Of a stretch of DNA of 22,969 nt, positions 1 through 8,086 are shown piece after piece. The DNA lies in IMG/VR virus record IMGVR_UViG_2548876695_000005, positions 1-22,969 of that record. The stretch is one strand, 5' to 3'. The position numbers were made by a program, and so were the translations under genes. The number at the start of each line of letters is the position of its first letter. Position 1 is the stretch's first letter. Source of the stretch: a virus (taxonomy: Duplodnaviria > Heunggongvirae > Uroviricota > Caudoviricetes). Below the pieces are notes generated by a model that did no database searches, was not told the origin of the DNA, and saw nothing but the letters and a program-made list of their open reading frames with translations.

Positions 1-114
1 CCATCAGAAACGATGATCTGGCAGCCTGAGTTCACAGATAAAACACTCTCCAGGAAAACCGGGGCGGTTCAGTTCCACCTCGCACAAGAAAAACGATAAC
101 GCCGCAGTGATGGA

Positions 115-594
115 TTATTTGAACCATTTACTGGATGGGTGAATGTCACCAATGTGGTGCGTTTCCTCGAAAGATTTTGAGAAGTGCATACCGGGGATAG
201 CGACATCGGCTTGATCCAGAATAGGAGCGTCGATAATGGCATTAATAAAAAACTGGGCACTTTGCTTTGCTAATTCTAATGAGTCAAAGCCATTACCTGA
301 ACTTTCGGTAACTTTAGACAGTTGTCCATTTTTTGAGATAAATAACTCCCAGCCCCATAGCGATTCATGCTGTTTTAAAGAAATAACTACAGATGGACAG
401 TTTTCTGTATCGCCAGAATTAATATCGTCACCAGCCTTAATAAAAATTGGCGATTCCATAAGGCCTACAAAGTTCTCAAGGTCATCAATGGCTTTAGGTC
501 TTGTTTCAAATAGTGGACTTTCAAAGAGGGGGGAACCATCGGAAAGTACCCAGTGTGATCCGTGGTCTTTTTTAAAAAACACATTGAATTTCAT
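115..594 (-). CDS. hypothetical protein, AT-rich accessory gene (about 160 aa)
   Basis: Minus-strand ORF; preferred start is the ATG at 594 (MKFNVFFKK...), preceded by AAGGAG with 5-nt spacing. The track start at 642 is a longer alternative. Lower GC than flanking phage genes and opposite in orientation to the early operon. No motif recognised; no HTH seen. Confidence 0.5.
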   Translation of the reverse strand: MKFNVFFKKDHGSHWVLSDGSPLFESPLFETRPKAIDDLENFVGLMESPIFIKAGDDINSGDTENCPSVVISLKQHESLWGWELFISKNGQLSKVTESSGNGFDSLELAKQSAQFFINAIIDAPILDQADVAIPGMHFSKSFEETHHIGDIHPSSKWFK

Positions 595-732
595 TACAAC
601 TCCTTCTGTGTTGGTGATTGTTATGCCTGATTCACTGCTCAAAGTTACACAGGCATAGCGATGTTATCACAGGAAACACGTGCCGGGCGTGGGGTTATAT
701 CCCGGCATCTTTTCAATATGACGGAGATCAAC

Positions 733-954
733 ATGGACTTAACACAGTGCCCTTCACTCGCCAGCCTGCTCACCCACGGCCAGCAGATCACCCACCGTCA
801 GCATCAACGCGGCTGGATTGAAACCCCGGACGGGCGGTTCTTCCAGCCTAAAGCGGCAGATGTTCAATTTGTTAAAAACTGCCGTGTACCGTTTATGTCG
901 CGCCCGCGTAATAAGCGCCGCTGGTTTTCCCGCTTAATGGGCATCTTTGCGTAG
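733..954 (+). CDS. hypothetical early-operon protein (about 73 aa)
   Basis: ORF track 661..954; preferred start is the ATG at 733 with GGAG 6 nt upstream. First gene of the rightward operon leading to dam and gpA. Function not recognised. Confidence 0.4.
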   Translation: MDLTQCPSLASLLTHGQQITHRQHQRGWIETPDGRFFQPKAADVQFVKNCRVPFMSRPRNKRRWFSRLMGIFA

Positions 955-969
955 TTCGGGGAGGTGGTT

Positions 970-1359
970 ATGTTGATGGATAAGACAGGACAACAGCCAG
1001 GCCGTCGCCAGTTCTTAGAGCAACGGGCTCGACTGCAAGCAAGTTTGAACGTCTCACGCGTGAACGACACTGCAACCCGTTTTAACCGCCTGGATGATGC
1101 CTGTAAAAAGGTGATTTTCATCCTGGCAAACGATGCGTCCAGATACATAGCCGGAATGCCGAAGCTGACCGCCAAACAGCTGGGTTGTACTTACGAAAAT
1201 CTAACCGAAAAGGAGCAAACGTGCCTTTTGATGGGCATTAAGCGCCTTTCCGAATTTGCAGCATCAATGCCGTGGGAATTTGAGGACTACGCCGCACCAC
1301 GCGCCGAAATTCAGGCGATACGCGACAAACCACCCGCGCCAGATAACGCAGTAAATTAA
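970..1359 (+). CDS. hypothetical early-operon protein (about 129 aa)
   Basis: ORF track 964..1359 (GTG); ATG at 970 is preceded by GAGG with 5-nt spacing. Lies between the small early gene and dam. Function not recognised. Confidence 0.5.
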   Translation: MLMDKTGQQPGRRQFLEQRARLQASLNVSRVNDTATRFNRLDDACKKVIFILANDASRYIAGMPKLTAKQLGCTYENLTEKEQTCLLMGIKRLSEFAASMPWEFEDYAAPRAEIQAIRDKPPAPDNAVN

Positions 1360-1429
1360 CAACTAACTACCCACAAAAAAGAAACAGGCGCTAACGCGTC
1401 GGGCTTCTTGCACCCTGGAGAAAGTAAAA

Positions 1430-2320
1430 ATGATTCGATCTCTCGTTAAATGGCCCGGTGGTAAAGGCCGCGTTATGCCTGATTTGCTGCCGATTCTGCC
1501 GAAAGCCGATTGCCTGGTGGAACCGTTTGTCGGCGGTGCTTCTGTTTTCCTCAATACTGAATATCGCCGTTATATCCTGGGTGATATCAACCCAGATTTA
1601 ATTAACCTGTATCGCCAGATAACCCGCTGGCCTGATGCGGTGATCGACGCTGCTCGCCCACTGTTTAAAGTGTACGGCGATAAAGACGGCTATAAGTGGA
1701 TCCGCGATGATTTCAACGCCCGCGCCCGTGACCTACTGTCATTGCGCAGTGTGTTTGAAGATGGGCCGGACGCGGGCAAGATTCTTCGTGCAGCACAATT
1801 TCTTTACCTGAACCGTCACGGATATAACGGCGTAGTACGCTACAACCAACAGGGTGGATATAACGTTCCCTTTGGGCGTCACAAAACCCCGCCTTACTTC
1901 CCGGAAGAACAAATCCGTTTATTCTCTGAAAAAGCTAACGACACGAAAGCTATTTTCGTGTGCTGCGATTTCCAGAGCACGTTAAAAATCATGATTGGTA
2001 GTGACGCGGTTATCTATTGCGATCCGCCATACCTGCCAACAAGCGAAACCGCTAATTTCACCCAATACCACACCGCCCCGTTTGGGATTAAAGAGCATCG
2101 CCAGTTAGCTGCCGCTCTGCTGGATATTAACCGCCTTACTGGTTCGCCGGTGATCCTGTCCAATAGCGACACCCCAGCCACCTGCGAGATTTATCGCTCT
2201 TTCAACTTCCAGGAAATTAGCGTTAACCGTTCTGTCAGCGCGAACGCCATTACCCGAGGGGCCGCCAGTGAGGTGATCGGTATTCTCAAGGTTGCGACTT
2301 CTACGGGCATATGTGAATGA
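1430..2320 (+). CDS. dam: DNA N6-adenine methyltransferase (Dam family)
   Basis: 296 aa. SAM-binding motif EPFVGGASVF near the N-terminus and catalytic DPPY motif (CDPPYLPT). GGAG upstream of the ATG. Stop overlaps the gpA start (ATGA), suggesting translational coupling. Confidence 0.85.
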   Translation: MIRSLVKWPGGKGRVMPDLLPILPKADCLVEPFVGGASVFLNTEYRRYILGDINPDLINLYRQITRWPDAVIDAARPLFKVYGDKDGYKWIRDDFNARARDLLSLRSVFEDGPDAGKILRAAQFLYLNRHGYNGVVRYNQQGGYNVPFGRHKTPPYFPEEQIRLFSEKANDTKAIFVCCDFQSTLKIMIGSDAVIYCDPPYLPTSETANFTQYHTAPFGIKEHRQLAAALLDINRLTGSPVILSNSDTPATCEIYRSFNFQEISVNRSVSANAITRGAASEVIGILKVATSTGICE

Positions 2321-4929
2321 CTAACGCTTTCGCATGGCCTTGGAACGCACCGCGTCCAGCTGTTGGCCCGTACATCTATGAACCGAAAAAAATCGCCCCG
2401 CTTGCTGGGGCGGTGGCGCATCATCCTGCCGTAAAAAAACATATCGATCACATCTTCAAACGTGCCGGTTACAATCCCGCCGAAGTTCGTGACCGTGATG
2501 CGCTCATCCAGGCGCTGGACAGGTACGAACCATGCGGCCTGCCACTGGCCGCCCATCAAAATATAATCCGGCAAGAAATGGAAGCCGCTAAAGCCACGGC
2601 GGCAGCCTGGGCCAATACGCCAGAAGGTGTCGAAGCACGTTTATTATCAGAGCCGTTCTTCATTCGTGAAGTCTGGCGTAAAAAAATTGAGTGGTTACGG
2701 GTCAACCGTGAAACCAGACACACCAATGATTTTCTTATGGGGACAGTGAAAAAATCATTGCTGCGTCTTGATGTTGTGCGCACAAGGCAAGGTGTTTCGC
2801 CTGATATCACCGGCGAACTGGCCGCGTACTGGTTCGGGCGCTGGCAACGGCTGGCTGATTTCACAAAGCGGGAAGCACTAAGCGCCGCTAATGAGATCGC
2901 CAGCCGCATGGCTGAAATGCTGGGGACGGAATGCGAAGCCCTGGGACAGAATGTTTCCGACATGAACGTCGAAGAACTGGACTGGCTTTATTGTCATCTG
3001 GGCCGCGAAATGCTGGCGCTTCGCATTGTGCCGCCTGCATGGTATGCGCCGTGGGAACGTGATCGGATATGTACGGCCATTTTGCGTATGGCTTCGCCTG
3101 ACTGGTGGGGGCGCAAAATCTGGCGCCTGCGTTGTGACTGGCGCGAAAACCAGCTGCGAGCCGTTGGCGCGGTAAATAAAAAAGCGCACGCATACGTTAG
3201 CGCTTCCAGCCTGATCGAGTGGCAGGAACAGCGCCGTAAAAACCGGGATTTTTTCAAAAGTCATGAACTGGTAGACGAAGACGGCAACGTTTCCTCACTT
3301 GAGGACATGATTAATAAATCCACGTCAAACCCGGCTATTCGTCGCCATGAGCTTATGGCCCGAATGGCTGGGGTTGAGCTTGTTGCCCAAAGTCGCGGCG
3401 ATGTTGGCATCTTCCTGACAATCACTTGCCCGTCGAAATATCACAGTAATATTGCATCCGGCCACCATAACGCCAAATGGAATCATTCCACCGTCGCCCA
3501 GGCGCAGTGCTATTTATGCCGTGTGTGGAACCGGGCAACCGCCAAACTGAAACGCGAAGATTTGCGCCCTTATGGCTTCCGTGTCGCCGAGCCGCATCAC
3601 GATGGGACACCACACTGGCACGCGTTGCTGTTTATGCCACAAGAGCAAGTCAAAGCCACGGTTGCGATCCTTCGCACCTACTTCATTGCGGAAGACCGCG
3701 ACGAGCTGGGCCGCAATACCGGCGCTCGTTTCAAGTCAAAAAAAATGGACCCACGGAAAGGGTCAGCAACGGCATACATCGCTAAATACATTTCGAAGAA
3801 TATCGACGGCCACGCGCTGGCCGGTGAACTGGACGACGAAAGCGGCAAGCCGCTGAATGAAAGCGCCAAATATGCAATGGCCTGGGCATCGCTTCACCGT
3901 ATCCGCCAGTTTCAGCCCATCGGACAGCCGCCCATATCGGTTTACCGCGAGCTGCGCAAACTTAGTAATCAGATCACGACCCGACAGAAAATTGACAGTA
4001 CCTTCAAACGTGGTGCGCCATTGCTTGTGGATCCTGCAATGGATGCGGTTTGCGCCGCTGCCGATGTCGGATGCTTTGCTACTTACATCATCCGCCAGGG
4101 TGGTGTTTTGATCCCGCGAGAAAACTATGTCGTCCGTCTGGCCTATCAGCCCGCTGATGAAATGAATGCTTATTGTGAGATCCCCGAAAAGGTTTTCGGG
4201 GTCTGGTCGCCGCGTCTGGGGGATGCCTCCCGTATTTGCACCCGTCTGGTTAAGTGGAAAATTCGAGCCAAATCCAAAACCGTCACTGGGGCCAAAAGCG
4301 GCCCCGGTTTGGGGGTTGACCTTTTGCCGTCGCCAACCGGCGACGCTTGGAGTTCTGTCAATAACTCTACGGAAGACGAAAAAATCACCGATTTTTCGCC
4401 TGGTGTGGAGGGTATTACAGAAGAATCAGAAGAGGAAATCGTCGATTTTGAAAATATGGACCAGCCAACGCGGCGCAAATTGATACGGCGACTACGTGAA
4501 GCACCATTCAAAAGGCGGCACAGCGGATCACCTTATGAACCAGGGAGCGAATTAGATGTTGCCTGGCGTTCTGCCGTGGAAAAAACCGAGGCCAGATCGG
4601 TGGCTGATAAAGCCAGGCGGGCAGCGCTTGCCCCTGCGGTTGCCAGTCTGCTGGCTGATGCGGCGTTGTGTTTGGTTGAGATTTCAGAGATTCAGGCCGT
4701 TTCGCTGTTAATGGGGAGCCGTCTGGAGATTGGCGGGAAATTTTATCAAGCCAGTGCTGGCGGCCAGTTGATAACGCGTCAATTACCTAATGAGTCACGG
4801 ACGGTGAATAAATTATGGGAACATTTACGGGATAACCACGGCATTGATGCCACGCACCTGCGGTTTGATCCGGTCGGGGAATATCAAAAAATGCTGGCGG
4901 GTGCGGAAGGTCGCTACCCTAAAGAATGA
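2317..4929 (+). CDS. A: P2 gpA-type replication initiation endonuclease (rolling-circle initiator)
   Basis: 870 aa. HUH motif (PHWHALLF) and paired active-site tyrosines Y-x3-Y (TAYIAKYISKN), as in P2 gpA-family initiators. Position after dam and before the accessory island fits P2 synteny. Confidence 0.85.
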   Translation: MTNAFAWPWNAPRPAVGPYIYEPKKIAPLAGAVAHHPAVKKHIDHIFKRAGYNPAEVRDRDALIQALDRYEPCGLPLAAHQNIIRQEMEAAKATAAAWANTPEGVEARLLSEPFFIREVWRKKIEWLRVNRETRHTNDFLMGTVKKSLLRLDVVRTRQGVSPDITGELAAYWFGRWQRLADFTKREALSAANEIASRMAEMLGTECEALGQNVSDMNVEELDWLYCHLGREMLALRIVPPAWYAPWERDRICTAILRMASPDWWGRKIWRLRCDWRENQLRAVGAVNKKAHAYVSASSLIEWQEQRRKNRDFFKSHELVDEDGNVSSLEDMINKSTSNPAIRRHELMARMAGVELVAQSRGDVGIFLTITCPSKYHSNIASGHHNAKWNHSTVAQAQCYLCRVWNRATAKLKREDLRPYGFRVAEPHHDGTPHWHALLFMPQEQVKATVAILRTYFIAEDRDELGRNTGARFKSKKMDPRKGSATAYIAKYISKNIDGHALAGELDDESGKPLNESAKYAMAWASLHRIRQFQPIGQPPISVYRELRKLSNQITTRQKIDSTFKRGAPLLVDPAMDAVCAAADVGCFATYIIRQGGVLIPRENYVVRLAYQPADEMNAYCEIPEKVFGVWSPRLGDASRICTRLVKWKIRAKSKTVTGAKSGPGLGVDLLPSPTGDAWSSVNNSTEDEKITDFSPGVEGITEESEEEIVDFENMDQPTRRKLIRRLREAPFKRRHSGSPYEPGSELDVAWRSAVEKTEARSVADKARRAALAPAVASLLADAALCLVEISEIQAVSLLMGSRLEIGGKFYQASAGGQLITRQLPNESRTVNKLWEHLRDNHGIDATHLRFDPVGEYQKMLAGAEGRYPKE

Positions 4930-5293: not shown

Positions 5294-8086
5294 ATGTGGG
5301 GTCTGATTTTGGAAAGAAAAATTATTTTTAATAATGGTTTTTTAAGTATAAATAGGGAAGTTATAATTATCTTCTTGATCTACTTTATTCTGGTCGGGTT
5401 GGGTATTTCCGGTGTAATCTACTCTAGATATGTTGATGAAGGGGTAAAGTATTTACTTGTAACACCATCTTTTCTCAATAATTCCCCATTGAATTGGACT
5501 ACTAGTGTTTGGGCGGGAGTTTTAGGCATACATGGAACTATTGCTGCACTATCAATTACATTTATGGGAATGTTTGTTAGTCAGGTTTCTAATTATTCTG
5601 AACATGGCTTTGAAAATATTTGTAAGTCGATGTTGTTGCGGAAAACTAGTTTTTTAAAGTTTAGTTTAAATTCTATTTTTAGTCTTTTAAGTGGTATCGT
5701 ATTGCTTTCATGTGGTGGCGGCATGATTACTTATGCTATATCCATTTTTGTATCGTTATACTTTATTTTTAATTATGGTTCAATGTATCTGAAATTATAT
5801 AATGTTACTGAGAATCCAACTATAATAACTGATCGTTTATTTTTTGAGCTTGATAAGGCTAAAAATGATTATTTATTGATTGACGAACGTAGAAGAACTA
5901 TAGAAAATAAATTTTTAAACATGATTAATGATTTTGAATATATTCATTATGGGTGGGATTCCGATTTTATCAATAAAGGACAACGTAAGTTAAATATTTT
6001 CCAAAATAATCAAAATGTCATTATTAATGATTTTTGTCCAATTTGCTTTAAAGAAATTAACAATGAGCTAGAGCGTTTTTCGAAAGTGGTACGTACTGAT
6101 TTACGCGTGAATCTTAACTTTATATATCCACTATCAACCTCATCGGTTCATATTGAAGTGCAAGATGGAGCGTCGATCGATGAGCTATTAATTAGTAATG
6201 TTACAAAACTATTGAAAAAAGGATTGGTGTTCAGTTCAGCTCCTGAAAGCTTCTTGAATTACGGTAAGTATGAAGATGCAGTAGTTATTAGCTTAAGAAA
6301 TAGTCTTTTTAGTGGTAATGAGTTAGCGTTAGATTTTAGCATAAGAGCTATCTTCACATTAGTTAGTGAAACTGAATTAGTTAAAGTAATACATAACCTC
6401 AATCACTCTTTTGGTTATACTAACAAAAAAAATAATATAGAGTATTCAATTTTTGCTGCTTTTTATATGAAGGTTAGTTCTGAAGTGAGTGGGTATAAAA
6501 ACTATAATATAGTGTGTGATGCTCTTCGATCGATTATGGATTTGGGAAGGTATATTTATGATAATGAGCAATATGATGAATTTTATAAATTGATATCACC
6601 GTCATTGGAACATCGTGCTCAATATAGTTTAGGTGATCCAGAATATCGTTTTTTTGATTTATATATGTCAACGGTGAGAGACAACATCTTGTCAAAGAAT
6701 TATTTGGCATTTAGCCTGAATACTCGATTCTTGACTGAGAAATTTCGTTATCCAGAGTCATCTGATGATGGCGAAACCCTTAGTATCATTGAGAACAAGA
6801 TGGTATCGTGTGTAAGACAGGTTATAACTTTACTGATTATTAGGCTGTGCTATTTATCTGAAAAAAGTGATGGGCATCAGGAGGAATTGAGAATAATAAA
6901 ACAGAATTTAATGAAATGGTTAGCACCTTCATTCCTAGAAGATCTTTTTTATAAGAGTGGCGTGTATGATGTTATATTTACAGTCCCATCTGAACCTGAT
7001 TTTGATGCAAGTAGAACTTTAAGAGATATACCTGATTATGAGGTTGCAACCTTTTCAATAAATAACGATGCTTTCAAAGCAGTATCCCTTTTAATGACTC
7101 AAACATTATTTAATAAAAACAACTTCAATCCTATTTTTATACGTAATAAAAAAGAGTTTATTAAAAATACAAAAATAACAACTCATGAACTGCAATCACT
7201 TATATCATATTTGAAAGGTGATGAATTTTCAGCTTTATTAGAGTTGATTAATGAAGGATCTTCTCAAGAAACAAATCGGATGGAGGTTGCAGAGCATCTT
7301 GAAAGTATAATTTCTGTAAAAAATGAATTAATCGCAAATTCTATTGTTTCTTCTGACCTTGATAAGGTTCTGGTTAATAAATACATAGATAAAGTATCAA
7401 TATCATTAGGTGGGTATTTTAATAAATTCGTAGATATTGATTCTATTCCTGTGTCAAATTCAGTTGTCTGCAATCCATTCTATTCATTGATTAATAAGAG
7501 AGAAGTCTTGCAGTCAATTGATAAAGTGCATTATTCAATGAATAGTTCACATCATGCTGAAGTGTTTGTCTATGCTTGGCTTCATAAAATGCTTGATGGA
7601 ATTAAAGGCCAATATAAAGATGTAAATGAGATCGAAGATGTAAGTGAACTACCTTCCGATAAGCTTATAACAATTCATTACATGGTTAAAGGAGAGGCAA
7701 GTGTTTACCGTTACTCAAAAGGTATGAGAATAACAGATTCAAAAGGAGTTTTGGGTTTGGGGTCTCCTGGTCTTTACTACATGGATTTTTTGAGCGTATT
7801 TTCCTGTCTGCGGAATACTAATTTATTTGATTTGAAAATTGAAAGTATTTCTGATGAGAATATTTCCTTAGTTAAGGGGTTGTATAATTTCAAGGATGAA
7901 AATCCATTGATGTACGCGCTGATGTCTATTAGGATTAATTTGGAATTTATTAATAACGATGGCTTGTCGTTTTATTATATTTCTGTAGATAGTTGTAAAA
8001 AAATCACTGCATTACATGAACAAAAACTTCGTCTATCTTTTAATGATAAAAAACCAATGGATGATATTGGTGAACTTTCAGATTAA
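5294..8086 (+). CDS. large AT-rich hypothetical protein with N-terminal multi-pass membrane domain (candidate anti-phage/abortive-infection effector)
   Basis: 930-aa uninterrupted ORF in a region of very low GC. The ATG at 5294 is directly preceded by an in-frame TAA; no strong SD. Three to four hydrophobic segments within the first ~165 aa (VIIIFLIYFILVGLGISGVIY; VWAGVLGIHGTIAALSITFMGMFV; FSLNSIFSLLSGIVLLSCGGGMITYAISIFVSLYFIF), then a ~770-aa hydrophilic region. I saw no Walker A, HExxH, DPPY or other catalytic signature. Location between gpA and the portal matches the P2 accessory-cargo position. Confidence 0.7.
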   Translation: MWGLILERKIIFNNGFLSINREVIIIFLIYFILVGLGISGVIYSRYVDEGVKYLLVTPSFLNNSPLNWTTSVWAGVLGIHGTIAALSITFMGMFVSQVSNYSEHGFENICKSMLLRKTSFLKFSLNSIFSLLSGIVLLSCGGGMITYAISIFVSLYFIFNYGSMYLKLYNVTENPTIITDRLFFELDKAKNDYLLIDERRRTIENKFLNMINDFEYIHYGWDSDFINKGQRKLNIFQNNQNVIINDFCPICFKEINNELERFSKVVRTDLRVNLNFIYPLSTSSVHIEVQDGASIDELLISNVTKLLKKGLVFSSAPESFLNYGKYEDAVVISLRNSLFSGNELALDFSIRAIFTLVSETELVKVIHNLNHSFGYTNKKNNIEYSIFAAFYMKVSSEVSGYKNYNIVCDALRSIMDLGRYIYDNEQYDEFYKLISPSLEHRAQYSLGDPEYRFFDLYMSTVRDNILSKNYLAFSLNTRFLTEKFRYPESSDDGETLSIIENKMVSCVRQVITLLIIRLCYLSEKSDGHQEELRIIKQNLMKWLAPSFLEDLFYKSGVYDVIFTVPSEPDFDASRTLRDIPDYEVATFSINNDAFKAVSLLMTQTLFNKNNFNPIFIRNKKEFIKNTKITTHELQSLISYLKGDEFSALLELINEGSSQETNRMEVAEHLESIISVKNELIANSIVSSDLDKVLVNKYIDKVSISLGGYFNKFVDIDSIPVSNSVVCNPFYSLINKREVLQSIDKVHYSMNSSHHAEVFVYAWLHKMLDGIKGQYKDVNEIEDVSELPSDKLITIHYMVKGEASVYRYSKGMRITDSKGVLGLGSPGLYYMDFLSVFSCLRNTNLFDLKIESISDENISLVKGLYNFKDENPLMYALMSIRINLEFINNDGLSFYYISVDSCKKITALHEQKLRLSFNDKKPMDDIGELSD

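What the first reader, a model, noticed from the sequence alone, without database searches (positions are those of the whole stretch)
115..732. Second AT-rich accessory gene on the opposite strand at the head of the early operon
The ORF 115..594 has an excellent ribosome-binding site (AAGGAG, 5-nt spacing), lower GC than surrounding phage DNA, and is divergent from the early genes across a 138-bp intergenic region. It has no HTH, so it does not look like the immunity repressor, and no integrase follows it. It behaves like a moron (host-fitness or defence cargo) acquired separately from the phage backbone.
Basis: partly seen in the sequence, partly recalled or inferred. Interest (0 to 1): 0.5.

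Follow-up and report, generated by a model that had tools for sequence, protein, structure and literature searches.

The report
Antisense prophage cargo gene with partner
The 159-codon reverse-strand gene is real and has its own promoter and terminator, but it lies inside (not at the head of) the early operon of a P2-like E. coli prophage, always next to a converging early gene, in a slot where related prophages carry other small genes; its function is still unknown.

Summary
The ORF at 115..594 (-) is a real gene: AAGGAG site 5 nt before the ATG, 39.6% GC against 52.9% in the neighbouring early genes, dN/dS 0.12-0.35, and a confident predicted fold. The overlapping + ORF 236..658 is a shadow frame.

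In IS-free genomes the order is int, C repressor, cox, a 115-aa early gene ("partner"), this ORF antisense, then fil, dam and gpA. The gene therefore lies inside the early operon.

It has its own conserved extended -10 (TGnTAnnnT), a covarying 5' stem-loop, and a terminator hidden in the partner's last codons; the IS split that terminator. A partner homologue converges on the ORF in every locus where the DNA extends far enough and the ORF shares at least about 25-30% identity with this one. Together the two coding regions form a divergence island in otherwise 94-100% identical prophages.

The same hairpin-plus-promoter module drives at least 24 unrelated small cargo genes elsewhere, so this is a hypervariable cargo slot.

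The protein is a soluble tandem repeat with a YegP-like fold and a conserved D-x-H-P-S tail. It matches no known defence family.

Best reading: a lysogen-expressed cargo ("moron") gene working with a lytic-phase partner, probably in phage exclusion. The function is inferred, not shown.

The parts
115..594 (-). ORF159 coding sequence: 159 aa, acidic (pI 5.0), soluble. Two beta-beta-beta-alpha-beta repeats (about residues 1-55 and 66-127) followed by a conserved C-terminal tail ending I-G-D-I-H-P-S-S-K-W.
600..605 (-). Shine-Dalgarno AAGGAG, 5 nt before the ATG.
   Evidence: conserved in homologous loci
623..656 (-). Stem-loop at the predicted 5' end of the mRNA: stems 650-656 and 623-629 (AUGCCUG/CAGGCAU) with a 20-nt loop.
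   Evidence: RNAalifold finds 8 pairs, 5 of them with compensatory changes. 90% of cells are paired against 27-41% when partners are slid; covariation 0.358 against 0.213 in shuffles, 0/500 reaching it. Thermodynamics alone is weak (z -1.1).
661..669 (-). Predicted extended -10 promoter TGATAACAT (TGnTAnnnT). Predicted transcription start is near 652-656.
   Evidence: There is exactly one TGnTAnnnT in the 100 nt upstream of the ATG in 10 of 10 loci, always at -71 to -77. Not tested experimentally.
682..706 (.). Conserved hairpin or inverted repeat GCCGGG-N13-CCCGGC at the right edge of the cassette. It overlaps a second repeat, CACG-N7-CGTG. Function unexplained.
72..110 (+). Detached 3' end (codons 104-115 and the stop) of the 115-aa partner gene. 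The rest lies left of the IS, outside the window, and now ends ...ETVRDV* at 104 aa.
79..85 (-). Surviving arm (CTCGCAC on the + strand) of the intrinsic terminator of ORF159. In IS-free genomes the hairpin is GTGCGAG-N9-CTCGCAC followed by GGUUUCUUCAUC on the minus strand. The IS is inserted in its loop.
   Evidence: (z -2.2)
1..71 (+). Right end of an IS3-family element (inverted repeat ...CCGGGGCGGTTCA). The 3-bp target duplication GTT lies at 72-74.

Best explanation
ORF159 is an independently transcribed cargo ('moron') gene lying antisense inside the early lytic operon of a P2-like prophage, which is integrated next to yegR/yegS in E. coli.

Anatomy (shown or strongly supported by comparison):
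- The transcription unit consists of a conserved hairpin, an extended -10 promoter, a 5' stem-loop, a strong ribosome-binding site, the ORF, and an intrinsic terminator embedded in the last codons of the converging early gene ('partner', 115 aa).
- The ORF points the same way as the repressor and integrase genes.
- The two genes travel together and diverge together.
- They occupy a slot in which related prophages carry other small antisense genes behind the same promoter module.

Function (inferred):
- The soluble tandem YegP-like protein is made in the lysogen. There it binds a protein or nucleic-acid target through its repeat pair and conserved D-x-H-P-S tail, to the detriment of incoming phages (exclusion or defence).
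- When the prophage itself enters lytic growth, the early promoter Pe makes the partner. The partner neutralises ORF159 or takes over its target, while convergent transcription and the roughly 55-nt 3' RNA overlap damp ORF159 expression.

In the window strain, the IS element has truncated the partner, split the terminator, and probably blocked the early operon.
For: Real gene.

Position inside the operon: searches give the order int, C, cox, partner, ORF159 (antisense), fil, dam, gpA.

Insertion relative to SI7.

Own promoter, 5' stem-loop and ribosome-binding site conserved across 10 loci.

Own terminator:
- An 8-12 bp hairpin with a U-rich tail is present in 11 of 12 loci.
- G-U pairs make it fold only on the ORF159 strand.

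Pairing with the partner:
- The partner HMM hits a convergent ORF, from a 4-nt gap to an 8-nt overlap, in all 30 ORF-bearing loci whose DNA reaches that far. These loci were gathered partly through the partner itself and include duplicates (about 14 distinct pairs). The one exception is cut by a contig end.
- The flanking genes differ on both sides.

Divergence island:
- The E. coli, Salmonella and Citrobacter prophages are 94-100% identical outside two islands.
- One island is the C/Pe/cox immunity region. The other is the partner plus ORF159 coding sequence, at 48-88% identity.

Hypervariable slot:
- A different convergent pair sits at the same place in L024.
- The same module drives 24 unrelated cargo families.
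- L085 and L120 have the window's untranslated leader but different ORFs.

Fold:
- The internal repeat is supported at 95% hhalign probability.

Literature:
- About 8% of the known defence systems of P2-like prophages lie between int and gpA (PMC13586616).
- Orientation antisense to lytic genes is described as typical of accessory loci (PMC7067206).

ORF159 is 100% intact in all 19 E. coli genomes, whereas the partner is hit by two independent IS insertions.
Against: - There are no expression data and no phenotype.
- PADLOC, Pfam and NCBIfam give no match. BFVD and PDB sequence searches give nothing either.
- The YegP relation is at fold level only. hhalign gives P 0.004 and 9% probability. 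YegP itself has no known function.
- Both proteins are acidic (pI about 5), which does not favour nucleic-acid binding.
- The partner family can sit next to a different antisense gene (L085). The two most distant ORF159 relatives have neighbours that the partner HMM does not detect.
- Identifiable cargo at the same slot is BssS-like or GhoS-antitoxin-like, not classical defence.
Confidence: 0.4

Rival explanations
1. Safety-catch or antitoxin-like reading. The partner is the active lytic-phase protein (host take-over or toxic early function). ORF159, made constitutively in the lysogen, is its antidote and protects the cell from leaky early transcription.
For: - ORF159 is never found without the partner family among closer relatives. 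The partner does occur with a different antisense gene behind the same leader (L085), as if the antidotes were interchangeable.
- One alternative cargo at this slot matches the GhoS antitoxin family (22.7 bits, cut-off 21).
- The 3'-overlapping convergent transcripts resemble type I toxin-antitoxin layouts (own knowledge).
- Co-divergence of the two coding regions is what interacting pairs show.
- The partner is IS-disrupted twice while ORF159 stays intact.
Against: - Pe is repressed in lysogens, so an antidote would rarely be needed.
- The partner has no membrane segment, nuclease or other toxin signature.
- Classical toxin-antitoxin pairs are co-transcribed.
Confidence: 0.25
2. Host-fitness cargo unrelated to phages. 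ORF159 is a stress or physiology modulator in the way YegP and BssS-type small proteins are thought to be, and the partner is simply a neighbouring early gene.
For: - YegP-like fold. YegP is described as stress-induced and uncharacterised (bioRxiv 10.1101/2024.11.21.623966; PMC13373217).
- A BssS-family protein is carried behind the same module elsewhere (60 bits).
Against: - This does not explain the strict adjacency to the partner across different backbones.
- It does not explain the joint divergence island beside the immunity region.
- It does not explain the terminator sharing codons with the partner.
Confidence: 0.15
3. Regulatory device. The main product is antisense transcription (transcriptional interference or RNA duplex with the early transcript) that throttles expression of fil, dam and gpA and stabilises lysogeny. 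The protein is secondary.
For: - A convergent promoter inside the early operon, with a roughly 55-nt 3' overlap with the partner mRNA.
- Precedents are 186 pR/pL interference (PMC5001618) and the BTP1 antisense RNA STnc6030, which excludes its own phage type (PMC7067206).
Against: - The protein is under clear purifying selection, and its fold is conserved down to 24% identity.
- A terminator stops the transcript soon after the ORF.
- Unrelated cargo proteins use the same module.
Confidence: 0.1
4. The + strand ORF 236..658 is the real gene, or ORF159 is a core P2-family early regulator.
For: The + frame is open for 120-158 codons in most homologues.
Against: - That frame shares the wobble position with ORF159. 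Its openness follows from the low Tyr, His and Gln content of ORF159 (shuffle P 0.06-1.0). It has 9 stops in L013. It has no family match.
- ORF159 is absent from SI7, SW3 and SW5, from all 50,697 phage records, and from 5407 of 5426 E. coli genomes.
Confidence: 0.02

Closest known systems
Morons / lysogenic-conversion genes of P2 (old, tin, Z/fun), and the moron concept from lambdoid phages
   Same: AT-rich relative to the backbone, own promoter and terminator, variable presence among close relatives, and an orientation suited to expression from the repressed prophage.
   Different: - It lies inside the early operon, between cox and fil, rather than in the gpA-portal or tail hotspots (PMC13586616; bioRxiv 10.1101/2024.10.15.618418).
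- It is always coupled to a converging early-strand gene whose last codons contain its terminator.
- It is served by a promoter module shared with many other cargo genes.
YegP / UPF0339 / DUF1508 (PF07411) proteins such as E. coli YegP, SO_3888 (2k49) and HVO_2922 (6q2z)
   Different: - No Pfam match. Profile-profile similarity is sub-threshold.
- Each repeat has an extra strand.
- It has a roughly 35-residue conserved tail with a D-x-H-P-S motif that YegP lacks.
- It is acidic.
- It is confined to P2-like prophages: only 24 representative clusters among 1.84 billion proteins.
Prophage exclusion systems with a built-in escape for the resident phage (P22 SieB/Esc, BstA with its aba element)
   Same: The proposed logic is the same: a lysogen-expressed blocker plus a device that spares the phage's own lytic cycle.
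   Different: There is no sequence or fold relation. Here the escape factor would be a separate early protein on the opposite strand. The comparison rests on my own knowledge and the interaction is untested.
Convergent 3'-overlapping toxin/antisense pairs (type I toxin-antitoxin systems such as bsrG/SR4), and BTP1 STnc6030
   Same: A lysogen-expressed transcript whose 3' end is complementary to the 3' end of a lytic or toxic gene's mRNA (PMC7067206 for STnc6030).
   Different: Here the antisense transcript encodes a conserved 159-aa protein. The overlap is only about 55 nt and consists mostly of the terminator.

Membership tests
Moron (autonomous prophage cargo unit) | Present in some genomes and absent from closely related ones | tested here: met
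   SI7 has cox abutting fil. 19 of 5426 E. coli genomes carry it. Other cargo occupies the same slot.
Moron (autonomous prophage cargo unit) | Own promoter | tested here: met
   By comparison only: a single TGnTAnnnT at -71 to -77 in 10 of 10 loci, followed by a covarying 5' stem-loop. No transcript data.
Moron (autonomous prophage cargo unit) | Own terminator | tested here: met
   A hairpin with a U-rich tail lies 15-30 nt after the stop in 11 of 12 loci, and G-U pairs make it strand-specific. In the window strain the IS has split it.
Moron (autonomous prophage cargo unit) | Base composition unlike the backbone | tested here: met
   39.6% against 52.9% GC.
Moron (autonomous prophage cargo unit) | Expressed from the repressed prophage | not testable with these tools
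   Needs RNA-seq or a reporter in a lysogen.
YegP / DUF1508 (PF07411) | Match to the Pfam model above the gathering score | tested here: not met
   No Pfam hit at E up to 1. E. coli YegP itself scores 153 bits.
YegP / DUF1508 (PF07411) | Profile-profile similarity to YegP domains | tested here: inconclusive
   hhalign of repeat 1 against the YegP domain profile gives P 0.004, probability 9%, 45 columns in register. Repeat 2 gives nothing. The YegP profile had low diversity.
YegP / DUF1508 (PF07411) | Tandem small beta-sheet-plus-helix domains (fold) | tested here: met
P2-type immunity repressor C | HTH DNA-binding domain, divergent from cox at Pe/Pc | tested here: not met
   No HTH. The 99-aa HTH repressor lies next to int, left of cox.
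Known anti-phage defence systems (PADLOC v2) | Match to any system component model | tested here: not met
   No hit at E up to 1 for ORF159. The partner was not scanned against PADLOC.
Type II toxin-antitoxin pair | Co-transcribed adjacent genes, with a recognisable toxin or antitoxin fold | tested here: not met
   The genes are convergent. Neither protein matches a toxin-antitoxin family.

The most novel reading that the evidence does not exclude
P2-like phages carry a hypervariable 'antisense cargo slot' inside the early operon that has not, as far as I could find, been described. A conserved hairpin-plus-extended -10 module drives interchangeable lysogen-phase genes. Many of these genes are paired with a converging lytic-phase gene. 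ORF159 plus the partner would be one such two-phase module, in which a lysogen protein and an early lytic protein act on each other to tell the resident phage from incoming relatives. This would be a second, diversifying self/non-self determinant beside the C/Cox immunity region.
Probability: 0.2. Interest if true: 0.7.

Novelty: new variant of a known kind. Interest (0 to 1): 0.5.

Why it matters
If the reading is right, the early operon of P2-like prophages holds a further source of small, uncharacterised lysogen-expressed genes. At least 24 families turned up in a capped scan. They can be found by a simple DNA signature, so cargo with possible roles in phage competition, toxin control or host physiology could be mined systematically.

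The ORF159/partner pair would be a compact test case for how a prophage protects its host without blocking itself. It would also give a first functional handle on the YegP-like fold, which recurs in defence-associated contexts but has no known activity.

For this particular STEC strain, the practical point is smaller. The IS insertion probably grounds the prophage while leaving ORF159 intact.

Tried and rejected
- **Family and structure searches with no match.** Pfam, NCBIfam and PADLOC gave no hit for ORF159. Pfam gave none for the partner. A PDB sequence search with the family profile gave no hit at E up to 10. BFVD Foldseek gave nothing below E 0.01. The afdb50 library was unavailable.
- **No isolated phage carries the pair.** tblastn of ORF159, a distant relative, and the partner against 50,697 phage records found no match.
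- **Genome scan.** The genome-contig scan with the family alignment found no confirmed locus.
- **Rfam.** No family matched in window 1..1500 at E up to 1.
- **LexA box.** I looked by eye for a LexA box in the promoter and found none, so an SOS-controlled Tum-like antirepressor is not supported. This was inspection only, not a tool result.
- **Leftward read-through idea.** I considered that the ORF159 promoter might feed the repressor and integrase genes, as pE does in phage 186. I rejected this because a conserved terminator follows the ORF.
- **Upstream hairpin as an early-operon terminator.** A U-tract follows it on the early strand only in some loci, and the folding z-scores are weak. This is left unexplained.
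- **Literature.** Searching for the two RefSeq accessions and the two PHROG numbers found nothing.

Full report
**1. What is in the window**

The minus strand carries an ORF from ATG 594..592 to stop 117..115, encoding 159 aa. AAGGAG lies at 605..600, separated from the ATG by the 5-nt spacer TTGTA. GC is 39.6% in the ORF, 46.4% in the 138-bp spacer 595..732, and 52.9% in the early genes at 733..4929. The neighbours on the + strand are:
- a Fil homologue at 733..954;
- a 129-aa gene;
- a Dam methylase at 1430..2320;
- the gpA replication endonuclease at 2317..4929.

The sequence-level observation is therefore correct.

**2.

Bases 1..71 match the end of IS629/IS1203-type IS3-family elements. 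The window is 100% identical to six STEC genomes, for example 2011C-4251. There the IS (inverted repeats TGAACCGCCCCGGG..., 3-bp duplication GTT) sits between this ORF and the rest of the prophage.

In 12 genomes with no IS in this stretch, the order next to yegS/yegR is as follows:
- integrase (-);
- a 99-aa HTH repressor (-);
- cox (+);
- a 115-aa gene (+), which I call the partner;
- ORF159 (-);
- fil, a hypothetical gene, dam and gpA (+);
- a 925-aa AT-rich gene;
- ogr.

So the ORF lies inside the early operon, not at its head, and an integrase and a repressor are present. Window 72..110 holds the last 12 codons and the stop of the partner. The IS truncates the partner to 104 aa.

**3. It is a real gene, and the overlapping + ORF is not**

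ORF159 matches phrog_9021 end to end (E 2e-112). It has 19 homologous clusters at 52-99% identity in Escherichia, Citrobacter, Kluyvera and Serratia. An exhaustive profile search of 1.84 billion representative proteins found only 24 clusters. Pairwise dN/dS is 0.12-0.35 with synonymous sites near saturation; for the partner it is 0.06-0.21.

ORF 236..658 (+) lies in the antisense frame that shares the wobble position with ORF159, so codon-position tests cannot separate the two. However:
- its stop count is no lower than in synonymous-codon shuffles of ORF159 (P 0.06-1.0);
- the frame has 9 stops in the L013 homologue;
- it matches nothing.

**4. The protein**

The AlphaFold2 model (pLDDT 85, pTM 0.80) shows two beta-beta-beta-alpha-beta repeats and a structured tail. 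The two repeats are homologous to each other (hhalign 95%, E 2e-8).

Across relatives down to 24% identity, the invariant positions are W15, D150 and P153. H152, W80 and W82 are kept in at least 90% of sequences. Together they define a tail motif P-I-x-D-x-x-G-V-x-I-P-x-x-x-F-S...I-x-D-x-H-P-S.

Both ORF159 and the partner are acidic (pI about 5) and have no membrane segment.

YegP itself is uncharacterised. Tandem DUF1508 domains have been compared with Whirly/PC4-type folds and proposed as infection-sensor domains in Menshen (PMC12065111). YegP genes occur downstream of the capK/capS immune regulators (PMC13373217).

**5. Its own transcription signals**

In ten loci, some sharing only about 30% protein identity, the 100 nt upstream of the ATG contain exactly one TGnTAnnnT, always at -71 to -77. 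A few bases further on begins a 7-9 bp stem with a loop of about 20 nt. The evidence for that stem is:
- RNAalifold finds 8 pairs, 5 of them with compensatory changes;
- 90% of cells are paired, against 27-41% when the partners are slid;
- covariation exceeds all 500 shuffles.

Folding energy alone is unremarkable (z about -1).

Fifteen to thirty nt after the stop codon, on the ORF159 strand, lies an 8-12 bp hairpin (GUGCGAG...CUCGCAC) followed by GGUUUCUUCAUC. It is present in 11 of 12 loci. Synonymous compensatory changes in the partner's Val-Arg and Pro-Arg-Thr codons maintain it. It has up to four G-U pairs, which would be C-A mismatches on the other strand (z -2.2).

So the terminator of ORF159 is written into the partner's last codons, and the two mRNAs should overlap by about 55 nt. 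In the window strain the IS sits in the loop of this hairpin.

**6. The partner**

HMMs of both families were run over the 35 loci held at that point. A partner homologue converges on ORF159, from a 4-nt gap to an 8-nt overlap, in all 30 ORF-bearing loci whose DNA reaches that far. The only exception is cut by a contig end. The set includes relatives at about 25-30% identity (L020, L022) and a Serratia phage where the partner is the C-terminal half of a 214-aa protein.

Two caveats apply to the 30 of 30. Some of these loci were fetched through the partner itself, and the set contains duplicates, so it represents about 14 distinct pairs.

The genes on either side differ from locus to locus: cox or small ORFs on one side; fil, DUF4761, an exonuclease, DUF2732 or a primase on the other.

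The link is not symmetrical:
- L085 keeps a 183-aa partner homologue next to an unrelated 91-aa antisense gene behind the same leader;
- the two most distant ORF159 relatives have convergent neighbours that the partner HMM does not detect.

The partner model (pLDDT 77) has no convincing fold match.

**7. A divergence island in a hypervariable slot**

The E. coli, Salmonella and Citrobacter versions of this prophage are 94-100% identical from int to dam except in two places:
- the C/Pe/cox-5' immunity region;
- the partner plus ORF159 coding sequences, at 48-88% identity.

The ORF159 leader and promoter, by contrast, are 94-99% identical.

Salmonella phage SI7 has cox abutting fil with nothing between them. 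E. coli 04-00955 has a different convergent pair (131 aa on +, 64 aa on -) at the slot that the ORF159-type pair occupies in a sister prophage. That pair sits behind the same hairpin, the same TGGTATTCT -10 and its own 5' stem-loop.

A capped scan of IMG/VR for the hairpin core found 47 places with the full architecture. A first ORF could be called at 41 of them, and these fall into 24 unrelated families of 39-188 aa, many followed by a convergent ORF. In some phages the module lies between the repressor gene and cox rather than after cox.

Of ten cargo representatives scanned against Pfam:
- one is BssS-family;
- one matches the GhoS antitoxin just above its cut-off;
- one is weakly Lar-like;
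- seven match nothing.

A recent survey places about 8% of the recognisable defence systems of P2-like prophages between int and gpA (PMC13586616). I found no description of this promoter module.

**8. How it most likely works**

Shown or strongly supported: ORF159 is an autonomous, antisense, low-GC transcription unit in a variable slot, coupled to a converging early gene.

Inferred:
- It is expressed in the lysogen, because its orientation matches that of C and int and its promoter is independent of Pe.
- Its protein acts through the repeat pair and the conserved tail.
- The partner, which is made only when Pe fires, is its functional counterpart.

I favour a phage-exclusion role with the partner as the resident phage's escape factor (confidence 0.4). 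The reasons are that the pair diversifies like the immunity region, that the slot behaves like other cargo hotspots, and that the YegP-like fold recurs in defence contexts.

The main rival is the reverse polarity, in which the partner is the harmful lytic protein and ORF159 its lysogen-phase antidote (0.25). The evidence in hand does not separate the two. A pure host-physiology role (0.15) and a mainly RNA-level role (0.1) are less likely.

**9. State in this strain**

ORF159 is identical in all 19 E. coli genomes that carry it. The early operon carries three independent IS insertions among them:
- the window's IS in the partner's 3' end, shared by six genomes;
- another IS3-family element in the partner's 5' part, in RM13322;
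- an IS1 in the gene after fil, in SW071610.

The window prophage is therefore probably blocked for early gene expression while keeping ORF159 and its promoter. The polarity of the IS is inferred, not tested.

**10. Verdict**

The positional reading is wrong. The 'moron' idea is supported and extended. Function remains unknown. The gene matches no described family, so I rate it a new variant of a known kind (prophage cargo unit), of moderate interest. The more interesting lead is the shared promoter module and the slot it marks.

Noticed in passing
window 661-706; loci L024, L038-L157: The hairpin (GCCGGG-N13-CCCGGC), the GCGTG that follows it and the extended -10 module upstream of ORF159 are shared by at least 24 unrelated small cargo genes in viral contigs. 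Some have the window's exact leader (L085, L120). In some phages the module lies between the repressor gene and cox. It overlaps a second inverted repeat (CCACG-N7-CGTGG). Its function is unknown.
   Followed up: partly
window 1-74: An IS3-family (IS629/IS1203-like) right end with a GTT target duplication. The IS is inserted in the loop of the ORF159 terminator and truncates the partner gene. Six genomes share it. RM13322 has an independent IS3-family insertion in the partner's 5' part, and SW071610 has an IS1 in the gene after fil.
   Followed up: yes
window 5294-8086 (+): A 930-aa AT-rich ORF (26-33% GC) lies between gpA and ogr, the classical P2 cargo hotspot. It has no PADLOC or NCBIfam match, and its only Pfam hit is a chance-level one.
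   Followed up: partly
L001 6064-6455 and 6670-7495: Among the E. coli, Salmonella and Citrobacter versions of this prophage, only two stretches diverge: the immunity region and the partner/ORF159 coding region. The ORF159 promoter and leader stay 94-99% identical, so recombination breakpoints lie close to the ORF start.
   Followed up: yes
L007 8501-9145; L085: Two partner variants were seen. One is fused to a roughly 100-aa N-terminal extension with a weak portal-like PHROG hit (S. marcescens). The other is a 183-aa form next to an unrelated 91-aa antisense gene.
   Followed up: partly
L160 3372-3851: One distant prophage carries a second, unrelated 159-aa antisense ORF in the same early region. 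By eye it looks hydrophobic and helical.
   Followed up: no
L012 6741-7073 (E. coli chromosome): The chromosomal yegP gene lies just beyond the far end of this prophage's integration locus (yegP-yegQ ... prophage ... yegR-yegS). This is probably a coincidence given the lack of sequence similarity to ORF159.
   Followed up: partly
L012 8919-9884: An AbiH-family abortive-infection gene is annotated just after yegQ, at or near the far end of the prophage in strain GN06156.
   Followed up: no
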